NCBI GenBank assembly: GCA_964016885.1
Contig: OZ024740.1
Coordinates: forward strand, 386,818,001 to 386,882,000
Length of the DNA stretch: 64,000 bases
Origin: Eledone cirrhosa
Taxonomy: Eukaryota
Direction: 5' to 3'
A model generated the notes under the pieces. The model ran no database searches. It was not told where the DNA came from and saw nothing but the letters and a program-made list of their open reading frames with translations. Positions 12,051 through 37,830 of the stretch are shown here, piece after piece (position 1 is the stretch's first letter; each line of letters starts with the position of its first letter). The position numbers were made by a program, and so were the translations under genes.

Positions 12051-12469
12051 ATGCACTAGACAAAATATCTTGTGACATTTAGTTGAAATTGACTTTGCCT
12101 TTTATCCTTCCAAGGGTGATAATATTATGTACCAGTCAAATACTTGGGTCGATATGACCAGTAGTACCCAAACTTATTTTATCATAAAACGCGTATAGGT
12201 TTGTTTTTTTAAGCATGGAACCCATACCTATACTTTATGGACAATTCCCAAATTGAAACCAAATTTGTTTAAGAGAGTGAATTTATTTATACAATATATA
12301 TATATAATTATATGTATGTGTGTGTGTGTGTATATAAGCAAAGAGTTATTTAATTTGTTGGTTATTCAACAAATTTATTTATAACAGATTCGAAGCACTC
12401 TACAGGATTTTTCTGGAGTCTAATATCAATAATATTAATAAATGGAAACTATCTTTCTAAAACCATATT

Positions 12470-12530
12470 TATTTTATTATATATATTTCAAAGGTACCAA
12501 AATTTTGGTACGCTCTCATCAGATAAAATA
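12470..12530 (-). ncRNA. Minimal type-I hammerhead ribozyme motif, inverted partner of 12635-12695
   Basis: Same architecture on the minus strand; stem II GUACCAA-AAUU-UUGGUAC. Confidence 0.65.
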
Positions 12531-12634
12531 CAAAAGTTGTTTTATAAATAGTGACATATCTAAAAATTAAAACAGAACTTAAAACAAAAAGTTCTTGTTT
12601 TTTGGATATGTCACTATTTATAAAACAACTTTTG

Positions 12635-12695
12635 TATTTTATCTGATGAGGGTGAACCAAAATGTTGGTACCCTTGAAATATATATAATAAAATA
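12635..12695 (+). ncRNA. Minimal type-I hammerhead ribozyme motif
   Basis: UAUUUUAU-CUGAUGA-stem II-GAAA-U-AUAU-A-UA-AUAAAAUA. Perfect 8-bp stem I; the base of stem II is imperfect. Confidence 0.65.
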
Positions 12696-12753
12696 AATAT
12701 GGTTTTAGAAAGATAGTTTCTATTTATTAATATTATTGATATATATATATATA

Positions 12754-25264: not shown

Positions 25265-25606
25265 TCATCATCATCATCATTTCATTTTACGTCCGCTTTT
25301 CCCTGCTTGCAAGGGTGGGACGGGAACTGATTCTGGCTTGATTTCTACAGCTGGATGCCCTTCCTAACACCAACCTCATTTACAGTGAGTGCTGGGTGCT
25401 TTTTTTGCCGTGGCACCTCCACGACCACTTTACAGTGGAATGATAAGGACCTCAGTCCCTATCATCTCATTTCTACAGCTGAGTAAACTGGAGCAATGTG
25501 AAATAAAGTGTCTTGCTCAAGGAAACAACACATCACCCAGTCTGAGAATTGAACTCACAACCTTTCGATTGCAAGGCCAATGCTCTAACCACTAAGCCAT
25601 GTGCCT

Positions 25607-31292: not shown

Positions 31293-31642
31293 TCATCATC
31301 ATCATTTTCATCATTTCATTTTACGTCCGCTTTTCCCTGCTTGCAAGGGTGGGACGGGAACTGATTCTGGCTTGATTTCTACAGCTGGATGCTTTTCCTA
31401 ACACCAACCTCATTTACAGTGAGTGCTGGGTGGTTTTTTTCTTGCCGTGGCACCTCCACGACCACTTTACAGTGGTATGATAGGGACCTCAGTCCTATCA
31501 TCTCATTTCTACAGCTGAGTAAACTGGAGCAATGTGAAATAAAGTGTCTTGCTCAAGGAAACAACACATCACCTGGTCTGAGAATTGAACTCACAACCTT
31601 TCGATTGCAAGGCCAATGCTCTAACCACTAAGCCATGTGCCT
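31293..31642 (-). mobile_element. SINE family B, copy 3
   Basis: Near-identical to 25265-25608. Confidence 0.88.
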
Positions 31643-34834: not shown

Positions 34835-36770
34835 ATCATCATCATCATCATCTTCGTTTAACATCTATGTTCAATGCTAGCATGGGTTAGACGGAAGTTG
34901 TCCCACTTGAGGCAAGGTTGGTTGGGTGACCGTGTCTCGCTCATATAGGACTATCTGGCAGGTTTTCTATGGCTGGATACCCTTCCTAACACCAATGACA
35001 TTTACAGTGTGGAACTGGGAACTTTAACTTTTTACTGTGTTACCTACATGACCACATTACAGCGTGGACTGTTTTTTTGTCGTAACACCTACATGATCTC
35101 GCTCTCAATCTCATTATCTCATTTATTTGTTAACTTTGTCTTTCATCCATACGGGGGTCGATAAAATAAAGTACCAGTAATATACTGGGTAATTGCTGGG
35201 GTGTATATTTGGTTAAGAGGTGCCTACAGACTGTAGGTTTCGCTTTGTACATGGGCAAGGCAGGTCTTCTGTATTACTGTGTAGCACCAAAGATCTCAGT
35301 CCAGTGACATTGTCTTAGAGAGGTGCAAGTGTGTAAGGGCAGAATTTATCAAATCGTCCCAGGTTTTTCTGGGTCTACCTACTGCGTAACTACCATCAAT
35401 TTTGATCGCCCTGCACTTTTTTATACAGCTGTTGTCTTTCATGCACATCACGTGACCATACCAACATAGTCTTCTTTCAAGTAAACAGCATCTGATCCCT
35501 CTTATTCATAATTTCTCTAAGTTCATTTATGCTTTGCCGTTCACGTATATTACTATTACACATCCAACGGAGCATGCATACTTCGTTCCTTTCCAGTCTG
35601 CGCAGGTCCTCTGCACGCAATGCCCATGTCTCACTGCCATGTAACATTGGTGTTCGTATACAGGCATCATACAATCTGCCTTTCATTTTTAGAGAGAAAC
35701 CTTTTGTGGCCAACAGCGGTATAAGCTCTCTGAACTTTTTTCATCCCGTTCTGACTCTGGCTACTGTACCCTCCACCACTGCTGATTTTGTCACCCAGGT
35801 AACGGAAAGTGTCCACTATTTCTATAGAACCATCTGGGCAATAGAAGGAACTAGTATGCTGTGGGCACTTGCTACTTATTGCACCAGAGCACCGGCCACA
35901 TATAAAATCTACGTTCTTAGATAGTTTACCTGTGATCCCACTACATCTTTTATGTACACATAGTTTGCATTTGAGACATAAAATGGAATTTCTGCCTACT
36001 CCTTTCCTACACACTGAGCATGGCCATTTCCCTAAGGGCACCTGTGCCCTATTTTACTTTCTACAAATTAGGACTTTAGTCTTAGACAAGTTAACTTTAA
36101 GGCCTTTTGATTCTAGGTCATGCTTCCATGTTTGGAATTTCTTCTCTAGTTCAGCCATAGATTCAGCTATGAGCGTTAGATCATCTGCGTATAGGAGTTC
36201 CCATGGGGAGCCGGTCTTAAACTCCTCTGTTATAGCCTGAAGGGCAATAATAAATAGGAGGGGCTAAGGACAGAGCATTGATGAACACAAACTTCTACAC
36301 TAAATTCTTCACAATATTCATTGTTAATTCTAACCTTACTGACTGTTTCTTTATACATAGCTTGTATAGATCTCACAAGCCATTCATCTACACCTAGTTT
36401 TCTAAGAGCCCACCAGATAATGGAGCGGAGGACTCTGTCAAAGGCTTTTTCCAGGTCTACTAAAGCTAAGTAGAGGGGTTTACTTTTAGCTAGGTACTTC
36501 TCCTGTAGTTGTCGTACAAAGAAAAGAGCGCTTGTGGTACTTTTACCCGACACAAACCAAAACTGCATTTCATCTAGATCAATTCGCTCTCTGATTAGTT
36601 GCGCTATAACTCTTTCTGTGATCTTCATGACCTGGTCAACTAACTTTATGCTTCTATAGTTTCCCCTATCTAGAGCATCCTCTTTACCCTTGTAGCAGTT
36701 AATGATGAGGCTGCTATGCCAGTCTTTTGGTATGACCCCATTCTGTATTACTTGGTTAACTTGGTTAACA
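34835..36770 (-). mobile_element. Degenerate RTE LINE (A-like) with a SINE fragment nested at about 35130-35200
   Basis: Frameshifted ORFs 36230-36775, 35667-36041 and 35477-35713; (CAT)n at 34835. Confidence 0.92.
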
Positions 36771-36836
36771 TACACACATATATATATATATAAATGTATA
36801 TATAAAATAGGAAAATTTTCGCTCTACATAGCTGAA

Positions 36837-37260
36837 TACAATAAATGAAATCTAAGTTTTTCGAATATTAATATTAACATTTGATTCGTTTGCAATTATG
36901 CAAACAAACCATTTTTATAGCCATGTCAGTAGAATGAACTCTTCATTCTTGCTCTTGTGTTGGCATGTAAACAGAACTGCAGACACTAATGTTTCTGGGT
37001 ATCACCCTTCATCAGTACAGCTCACTGTTCACCTGCTAACTGTCAGAGCTAGTGAAATATACAGTGATTGATCAGCCTGATTTGCATATTAGCAGACTGG
37101 CTGATCAGTCAGATCTGCATATTAGCAGACCCACTGATGATACCCAGAAACATTAGTTCATTCTACTAACATGGCTATAAAAATGAGGCTTGTTTGCATA
37201 ATTGCAAACAAATCGAATGTTATTATTAATATTCGAAAAACTCAGATTACATTTAATGTA
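36837..37260. repeat. Inverted repeat containing one intact and one deleted hammerhead motif
   Basis: Arms share tttttcgaatattaat...gccatg..agtagaatgaact and actaatgtttctgggtatca. Confidence 0.85.
36972..37027 (-). ncRNA. Type-I hammerhead ribozyme motif
   Basis: GAGCUGUA-CUGAUGA-A-GGGU-GAU-ACCC-A-GAAA-CA-UUAG-UG-UC-UGCAGUUC; GUC cleavage triplet. Confidence 0.7.
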
Positions 37261-37432
37261 TATATACATATATATATAAATGTATATATACAATATATAT
37301 ATATATATACACACACACACACGCATATATATATATGTATATATAGATTTATATTTATATATATATGTATATATATATACACATATATATATATATATAT
37401 ATTATATATGTATATATATACACACATATATA

Positions 37433-37830
37433 TCATCATCATCAGCATCATCATTTCATTTTACGTCCGCTTTTTCCCTGCTTGCAAGGGTGGGACGGGA
37501 ACTGGTTCTGGCTTGATTTCTACAGCTGGATGCCCTTCCTAACACCAACCTCATTTACAGTGAGTGCTGGGTGCTTTTATTCCGTGGTGCCTACACATCC
37601 ACTTTACAGTGTGGGCTGGGTGCTTTTTTGCCGTGGCACCTCCACGTCCACTTTGCAGTGGAATGATAGGGACCCCAGTCCTTATCATCTCATTTCTGCA
37701 GCTGAGTAAACTGGAGCAATGTGAAATAAAGGGTCTTGCTCAAGGAAACAACACATCACCCAGTCTGAGAATTGAACTCACAACCTTTCGATTTCAAGGC
37801 CAATGCTCTAACCACTAAGCCATGTGCCTC
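37433..37830 (-). mobile_element. SINE family B, copy 4, with an extra internal repeat unit
   Basis: As above. Abuts the tail of the RTE at 37833. Confidence 0.88.

What the first reader, a model, noticed from the sequence alone, without database searches (positions are those of the whole stretch)
36837..37260. Second hammerhead palindrome, containing the best-formed ribozyme in the window
Seen: the minus-strand motif at 36972-37027 has an ~8-bp stem I, 4-bp stem II, 3-bp stem III and a GUC site. The mirrored + copy (about 37131-37160) has lost part of stem II and stem I. The outward-facing geometry matches 12423-12742 but the sequence is unrelated, so the architecture recurs across families.
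Basis: partly seen in the sequence, partly recalled or inferred. Interest (0 to 1): 0.7.

Follow-up and report, generated by a model that had tools for sequence, protein, structure and literature searches.

The report
Inverted retrozyme insertion with hammerhead ribozyme
The palindrome is one broken, back-to-back insertion of an abundant 437-base non-coding repeat that carries a hammerhead-shaped RNA predicted to cut itself and that was likely pasted in by Penelope-type jumping-gene enzymes, a known kind of element whose unusual features here are a mismatched pair in the ribozyme core and a likely borrowed small-RNA promoter.

Summary
The minus-strand type I hammerhead is real, with the predicted cut after 36982; its 45-nt core occurs unchanged at 683 genomic places. 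The insertion is 36802-37261. It belongs to a 437-bp ORF-less repeat that forms partial tandems. The + arm is no decayed mirror: it is an inverted copy truncated inside stem II, and its CUGAUGA is a junction accident. Inverted 5'-truncated arms, a ~35-nt tail on one end only (24 of 42 head-to-head pairs) and microsatellite flanks (77 of 86 ends) are published Penelope-like-element (PLE) insertion marks. So this is a non-autonomous PLE-type retrozyme insertion and the outward geometry is ordinary. Two variant features: A·A in place of the G10.1-C11.1 pair (U·U in a sister family), and an upstream box matching this genome's U6/MRP promoter element. Cleavage, transcription and the partner PLE are unshown. 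This copy has one usable ribozyme, predicted to misfold alone, and a damaged promoter region. The scan reported this family and its promoter box before, at other places in this genome.

The parts
36802..37261 (.). Whole insertion: two head-to-head, 5'-truncated arms of a 437-bp repeat unit, set in (TA)n
   Evidence: BLAST and pairwise alignment to the family unit
36802..37138 (-). Long arm, unit positions 124-480 (runs about 43 nt into the next unit); 89% to the family consensus including gaps
36802..36835 (-). One-sided ~35-nt tail at the 3' end, ending at the position of the family's T6 run
   Evidence: tail as described in PMC8557442 and PMC11167929
36962..37037 (-). Type I hammerhead: extended stem I, core 37015-37009, A·A at 37008/36996, stem II 37007-36997, self-complementary stem III 36992-36983, predicted cut after C opposite 36982
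37080..37087 (-). ATGCAAAT box (within TATGCAAATCAGG) like the element at -76 to -78 of this genome's U6 and RNase MRP genes; likely promoter part
37058..37062 (-). Site of a 19-nt deletion in this copy between the box and the TATA-like element
37069..37134 (.). 33-bp sub-repeats that carry the box and a TCAGT word
   Evidence: (D7)
37139..37261 (+). Short inverted arm: starts inside loop II (unit position 279), ~47-nt deletion at 37156-37157 removes the cut site, ends at the short 3' end; ribozyme non-functional
   Evidence: read from the sequence
37134..37140 (+). Accidental CTGATGA made by the inversion junction
   Evidence: sequence compared with the unit

Best explanation
The stretch is a single truncated insertion of a 437-bp non-coding repeat with one type I hammerhead per unit, likely copied from RNA into a TA microsatellite by the enzymes of a Penelope-like element, whose usual inverted second copy would account for the palindrome. 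Shown: the unit, its partial tandems, two fixed 3' ends about 35 nt apart, variable 5' ends, microsatellite flanks, no ORF. Inferred: tandem source loci are transcribed (possibly from the U6-like box), the hammerheads cut multimers to unit length by pairing two ribozymes through the self-complementary stem III or with protein help (about 0.65), the units may circularise, and a PLE RT-endonuclease starts cDNA at either of two sites, giving one long and one short end. This copy is most likely inert (chance that it yields a cleaved unit RNA about 0.1).
For: 683 exact 45-nt cores, control 0; 3,304 matches to a looser core, control 0. In 60 loci (113 arms): 44 short ends, 42 long ends, 27 other; 77 of 86 defined ends lie next to microsatellite; of 42 head-to-head pairs 24 are long+short, 1 long+long, 0 short+short, 17 have an interrupted end; no tail-to-tail pairs; head-to-head in 18 of 31 loci picked by core alone; 19 of 60 loci have an arm longer than one unit. 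Junctions vary over the whole unit. The circular unit folds at -168 vs -101±5 kcal/mol for 40 shuffles. Stem I pairs differ but hold in families A, B and D, and stem III is self-complementary in all three. These features match PMC8557442, PMC11167929, PMC4209133 and PMC7229834. One locus (L045) joins the unit head-to-head to a truncated RT-GIY-YIG ORF.
Against: No autonomous parent found. The unit has no similarity to the pLTR region of the PLE family at L045. Only 1 of 80 loci has a PLE ORF abutting a 5' end, and that junction could be a later deletion. No Rfam match. A·A at 10.1/11.1 would be rejected by published search rules (PMC3088659). The active monomer is 6.2 kcal/mol above the minimum fold, and the best predicted dimer (-56.2) is an inactive one, below the active dimer (-48.2). 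5' ends do not pile up at the cut site (3 of 128 within 299-301). In a published test only 1 of 9 predicted retrozymes cleaved (bioRxiv 10.64898/2026.07.22.740005).
Confidence: 0.85

Rival explanations
1. The unit is simply the detached pLTR (3' end) of an autonomous PLE that was not sampled, and the copies are ordinary 5'-truncated PLE stubs, not a self-standing retrozyme.
For: The insertion marks are those of autonomous PLEs; an unrelated ORF-bearing PLE in L106 has the same inverted flanks next to (TA)n. Only a small part of the thousands of copies was examined.
Against: In the loci mapped, arms that extend upstream run into another unit, closing a 437-bp circle. 19 of 60 loci hold more than one unit. 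Sister family D forms arrays of at least 6 units without an ORF. No locus of 80 has an RT/EN ORF upstream in the same orientation and continuous with the unit.
Confidence: 0.08
2. A fold-back/MITE-like DNA element that moves as a palindrome with paired outward ribozymes.
For: Arms are 87% complementary; head-to-head pairs are common (41 of 60 loci).
Against: The ends are asymmetric by the tail, the centre differs from copy to copy, 13 of 31 core-selected loci have no inverted arm, and the + ribozyme here is destroyed.
Confidence: 0.03
3. The hammerhead in this family is a relic that no longer cuts, kept only as a structural or protein-binding signal; the A·A pair marks loss of activity.
For: Predicted misfolding; no 5'-end peak at the cut site; PMC11167929 found cleavage unnecessary for insertion in vitro; mismatches at 10.1-11.1 lower activity (PMC3088659).
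Against: All catalytic nucleotides, an NUH site and covarying stems are kept in three diverged families. A U·U mismatch at this spot is compatible with cleavage in the axolotl retrozyme (PMC7229834).
Confidence: 0.25

Closest known systems
Metazoan non-LTR retrozymes (Cervera and de la Pena 2020, PMC7229834, parts 2-3 of 6 and passages read; Li, Clavereau and Pollet, bioRxiv 10.64898/2026.07.22.740005, parts 1-3 of 5 read)
   Same: ORF-less unit of 150-450 bp, GC under 50% (39%), one type I hammerhead per unit, tandem copies, highly self-paired predicted circle, PLEs in the same genome; a mismatch at the base of helix II has a precedent (U·U, axolotl HHR_Amex2).
   Different: Mostly dispersed 1-2 unit insertions with inverted arms and PLE tails; A·A rather than U·U; U6-like box inside the unit; expression and circles not shown; this copy has only one intact ribozyme.
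Penelope-like element insertions and pLTR hammerheads (Craig et al. 2021, PMC8557442, passages; Cervera and de la Pena 2014, PMC4209133, parts 1-2 of 4; Frangieh et al. 2024, PMC11167929, parts 1-2 of 4)
   Same: 5' truncation, partial tandems, inverted 5'-truncated copy, 30-40-bp tail at one end, (TA)n targets, palindromic helix III, opposite-strand hammerhead pairs 100-700 bp apart.
   Different: No RT-endonuclease ORF; no parent pLTR found; long extended stem I; lacks the conserved G10.1-C11.1 pair next to G12.
Newt satellite 2 and Schistosoma hammerhead SINE-like repeats (seen only as cited in PMC2220036 and PMC6765202, passages; Coats 1994 itself not held)
   Same: Hammerhead repeat that carries its own promoter inside the unit, so that one unit drives the next.
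   Different: Newt: Pol II snRNA-type promoter, tested. Schistosome: Pol III promoter. Here the box resembles the U6/MRP upstream element, and its function is untested.

Membership tests
Type I hammerhead ribozyme | Core CUGANGA, GAAA and NUH in type I order | tested here: met
Type I hammerhead ribozyme | Stems I-III supported by covariation | tested here: met
   First six stem I pairs hold in families A, B and D, with both partners changed at pairs 1 and 4; stem III differs in length and stays self-complementary. Three related families, not many independent events; some single copies break pairs.
Type I hammerhead ribozyme | Watson-Crick pair at 10.1-11.1 | tested here: not met
   A·A in 93 of the first 100 listed of 1,249 matches; 87 of 88 family A, 7 of 7 family B, U·U in 22 of 22 family D cores in fetched loci, many of them selected with this motif
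Type I hammerhead ribozyme | Match to an Rfam hammerhead model | tested here: not met
   none among 123 hits at E<=1
Type I hammerhead ribozyme | Mg2+-dependent self-cleavage | not testable with these tools
   needs in vitro transcription
Non-LTR retrozyme | 150-450-bp ORF-less tandem unit with one type I hammerhead, GC under 50% | tested here: met
   437 bp, 38.9% GC, 19 of 60 loci hold more than one unit
Non-LTR retrozyme | Two consecutive intact hammerheads at the locus (Li et al. 'active' rule) | tested here: not met
   This copy has one; other loci have two, 437-438 bp apart
Non-LTR retrozyme | Highly self-paired circular form | tested here: met
   Prediction only: 69% paired, z about -13; partly due to internal sub-repeats, and the antisense strand scores z about -10
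Non-LTR retrozyme | Expressed as unit-length linear and circular RNA | not testable with these tools
   no RNA holder listed
Non-LTR retrozyme | No LTR, PBS or PPT | not tested
   no dedicated search run
Autonomous Penelope-like element | RT plus GIY-YIG ORF between pLTRs | tested here: not met
PLE-type insertion | Inverted 5'-truncated copy and partial tandems | tested here: met
PLE-type insertion | 30-40-bp tail at one end only | tested here: met
   24 of 42 pairs long+short, 1 long+long, 0 short+short
PLE-type insertion | Microsatellite target | tested here: met
   77 of 86 defined ends
PLE-type insertion | Homology to the pLTR of an autonomous partner | tested here: inconclusive
   none with the one family compared in DNA; the genome was not searched exhaustively
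MITE / fold-back DNA element | Symmetric fixed termini and constant body | tested here: not met
U6-type (Pol III type 3) promoter | Upstream box as in host U6/MRP genes | tested here: met
   TATGCAAATNAG in families A, B, D; family B matches MRP over 14 nt; 3 distinct top-scoring U6 upstream regions and 1 MRP examined
U6-type (Pol III type 3) promoter | Box-to-TATA spacing as in host genes | tested here: inconclusive
   46-48 nt in genes; 45 (A), 43 (B), 42 (D) in repeats
U6-type (Pol III type 3) promoter | Drives transcription | not testable with these tools
   needs 5' RACE or a reporter

The most novel reading that the evidence does not exclude
A superfamily of at least 20,000 retrozyme units in this genome carries the host's U6/MRP promoter box inside each unit and a hammerhead whose stem II closes with a non-Watson-Crick pair that swaps between A·A and U·U. 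The units transcribe themselves with Pol III, the T-run terminator sets the long end of the PLE tail, and the weakened core makes cutting depend on dimer formation or PLE protein.
Probability: 0.3. Interest if true: 0.65.

Novelty: new variant of a known kind. Interest (0 to 1): 0.35.

Why it matters
The palindrome itself is ordinary PLE insertion anatomy. The family is of some use. It shows PLE insertion marks (one-sided tail, inverted truncated arm) on an ORF-less hammerhead repeat, which supports by insertion structure the proposal that animal retrozymes ride on PLE enzymes. If the A·A core cleaves, standard descriptors that demand a 10.1-11.1 pair miss thousands of ribozymes. If the U6-like box works, it explains how such repeats are transcribed.

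Tried and rejected
Rfam scan: no hammerhead hit. Search for an autonomous parent: same-strand core pairs 3.8 and 11.5 kb apart and a divergent pair 7.4 kb apart (L061-L064) enclose unrelated LINE or PLE pieces; the PLE family at L045 has its own, different hammerhead; the PLE in L106 is a separate insertion next to a family B copy. My first guess that the family restores a U-A pair at 10.1-11.1 was wrong: Watson-Crick versions are 4 of 100 listed. 5'-end pile-up at unit 241-243 as a transcription start: 6 of 128, P=0.08 against uniform, not accepted. U1/U2-type TCAGT element: best unit site reached by 12 of 500 shuffles, weak in family B, and part of a hairpin in the repeats, so left as a hint. 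A 3'-box-like word near the short end is not seen in family B and was dropped. Expression: no RNA holder listed; two runs of unrecorded type were laid, contigs only, which say nothing on expression or ends. Target-site duplication cannot be called inside (TA)n. A scrambled-order hammerhead, noted elsewhere in this genome, is not needed here since type I stems covary. Lunse et al. 2017 and Coats et al. 1994 were not held. Searches showed no natural A·A 10.1-11.1 case in the listings and passages I read, but Lunse 2017 and the supplements of PMC4209133, PMC7229834 and PMC8557442, which I did not open, may hold one.

Full report
Observation. On the minus strand lies a type I hammerhead: CUGAUGA at 37015-37009, a 4-bp stem II at 37007-36997, GAAA, a 3-bp stem III and GUC with C17 opposite 36982, closed by an 8-bp stem I that continues past a 2-nt bulge. 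A strict descriptor finds this one site in the window and none in 100 locally shuffled windows. Rfam lists no hammerhead at E<=1. The inverted arms are real and unrelated to 12423-12742.

The family. The window lies in a 3.0-Gb genome. The 45-nt core occurs unchanged 683 times and a looser core 3,304 times; both controls gave 0. From 27 near-complete copies the unit is 437 bp, 39% GC, without an ORF, and its end runs into its own start. I mapped 60 loci: 29 picked by likeness to the window (including the window's own copy), and 31 picked by the core pattern; overlapping duplicates L028, L039, L048, L062, L065 and L066 were dropped, L035/L036 were kept though they look duplicated. Of 113 arms, 44 end at a short site, 42 at a site about 35 nt further and 27 elsewhere, several of these at a later insertion. 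77 of the 86 defined ends touch a microsatellite. Of 42 head-to-head pairs, 24 join a long with a short end, 1 two long ends, none two short ends, and 17 have an interrupted end. No tail-to-tail pair was seen. Head-to-head pairs occur in 18 of the 31 core-picked loci, and 19 of 60 loci have an arm longer than one unit. Mean identity to the consensus is 92.8%. 5' ends are spread over the whole unit.

This copy. The insertion is 36802-37261. The minus arm covers unit positions 124-480, carries the tail and has a 19-nt deletion upstream of the ribozyme. The plus arm starts at 37139 inside loop II. So there is one usable ribozyme, and its partner is on the other strand and destroyed.

What it is. 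Craig et al. (PMC8557442, passages) describe PLE insertions as 5'-truncated partial tandems, often with an adjacent inverted 5'-truncated copy, a 30-40-bp tail often at one end, and microsatellite targets. Frangieh et al. (PMC11167929, parts 1-2 of 4) tie the tail to two reverse-transcription start sites. Cervera and de la Pena (PMC4209133, parts 1-2 of 4) report opposite-strand hammerhead pairs 100-700 bp apart. ORF-less hammerhead units of this size are non-LTR retrozymes (PMC7229834), proposed to be non-autonomous PLE derivatives (bioRxiv 10.64898/2026.07.22.740005). The family fits both. The circular unit is predicted at -168 kcal/mol against -101±5 for 40 shuffles, though the antisense strand also folds well. 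I did not find the partner. One of 80 loci, L045, joins the unit head-to-head to a truncated RT/GIY-YIG ORF ([GIY-YIG E 0.0013, below Pfam's cut-off], 36, 74), but that PLE family has a different hammerhead and no likeness to the unit.

The ribozyme. Sister families B and D were found by relaxed patterns. The first six stem I pairs hold in A, B and D with both partners changed at two positions, and stem III is self-complementary in each (ACAUUAGUGU, ACAUGU, ACUAGU), the mark of ribozymes thought to cut as dimers (PMC4209133; PMC6765202, passages). Stem II is closed by A·A in A and B and by U·U in D (93 of the first 100 listed matches; 87 of 88, 7 of 7 and 22 of 22), which reads as a non-canonical 10.1-11.1 pair, not two bulges. 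U·U has precedent and can cleave (PMC3088659 section 8; PMC7229834). I saw no A·A case, with Lunse 2017 and supplements unseen. Against activity: the lone RNA is predicted to pair its core with the stem III strand (active fold -18.0 against -24.2), the active dimer (-48.2) only ties two misfolded monomers (-48.4) and lies above an inactive dimer (-56.2); 3 of 128 5' ends lie at the cut site; 1 of 9 predicted Xenopus retrozymes cleaved in the published test; and a PLE hammerhead needed protein to cut and was dispensable for insertion.

Promoter lead. Three distinct top-scoring U6 upstream regions and the single RNase MRP gene carry TATGC(A/T)AAT(G/T)AG at -76 to -78 and a TATA near -30; only 5 of 48 U6 hits were printed and examined, and one array copy (L123) is interrupted by an insertion. 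Families A, B and D carry the same box 87-92 nt before the core; a box-to-core pattern matches 20,286 places, control 0. In A and D2 the first T-run of four or more after the predicted start is the T6 at the long end; in D1 it is a T4 followed by a T7 at the same place. Against: box-to-TATA spacing is 42-45 nt against 46-48 in the genes; in D the box is one arm of a hairpin; about half of the arms include upstream sequence, so templates must read through the T-runs; the 5'-end peak near the predicted start is not significant. I put a working promoter at about 0.5. A hammerhead repeat with an internal snRNA promoter is known in newts (cited in PMC2220036). In this copy the 19-nt deletion shortens the region, so it is probably silent.

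Earlier notes. After these tests, one search showed that the scan had reported this family (438-441 bp) and the U6-like box at other places in this genome. They agree with my reading but are not independent evidence; one adds that many U6 upstream regions lack the box, which I did not test.

Verdict. A real hammerhead-bearing repeat, here as an inert PLE-type insertion; the outward-facing geometry is known. The A·A core and the promoter box make it a variant of a known kind. Interest 0.35.

Noticed in passing
window 12335-12742: The other palindrome also has a one-sided extension, here about 85 nt, (TA)n flanks, and a centre that differs between copies (124-152 nt between cores in 15 of 20 loci where both cores were found), always in one short zone upstream of the ribozyme. 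All 40 best hits span nearly the whole element. It looks like a PLE-type insertion of another family with a hot spot for inversion.
   Followed up: partly
L161-L167 (G000:C1:5539210-5545179), L174/L175: Family D: young, near-identical 430-500-bp units in arrays of at least 6 plus an inverted copy, with a (TA)n stretch inside the unit and a U·U-closed hammerhead; the best candidates for live source loci.
   Followed up: partly
L045:1405-2990: Two-ribozyme partial tandem joined head-to-head, with 2-nt microhomology, to a 5'-truncated RT/GIY-YIG PLE; a possible template switch.
   Followed up: partly
L004, L030, L045, L049, L052, L055, L058, L090, L169: A similar short repeat has inserted many times at unit positions about 400-427, in the AT-rich hairpin before the short end.
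   Followed up: no
L126-L151 (U1, U2, U5 genes): Pol II snRNA genes here share AATTA near -90, (A)TCAGT at -55 to -58 and a TATA-like word near -30, a different set from U6 and MRP; U1 and U2 share an AAAA(N)CAGA word after the 3' end.
   Followed up: partly
window about 36233-36823, minus strand (L001:898-1488): LINE reverse-transcriptase remnant next to the microsatellite that received the insertion (RTE-like by my recall, not tested).
   Followed up: no
window 37761-37824, 25538-25601, 31578-31635: Weak tRNA-like matches (28-30 bits), probably heads of tRNA-derived SINEs.
   Followed up: no
L106:1039-3510: Nearly full-length broken PLE with 256-bp inverted flanks (94%), unrelated to the unit; shows the same inverted geometry on an ORF-bearing element.
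   Followed up: partly
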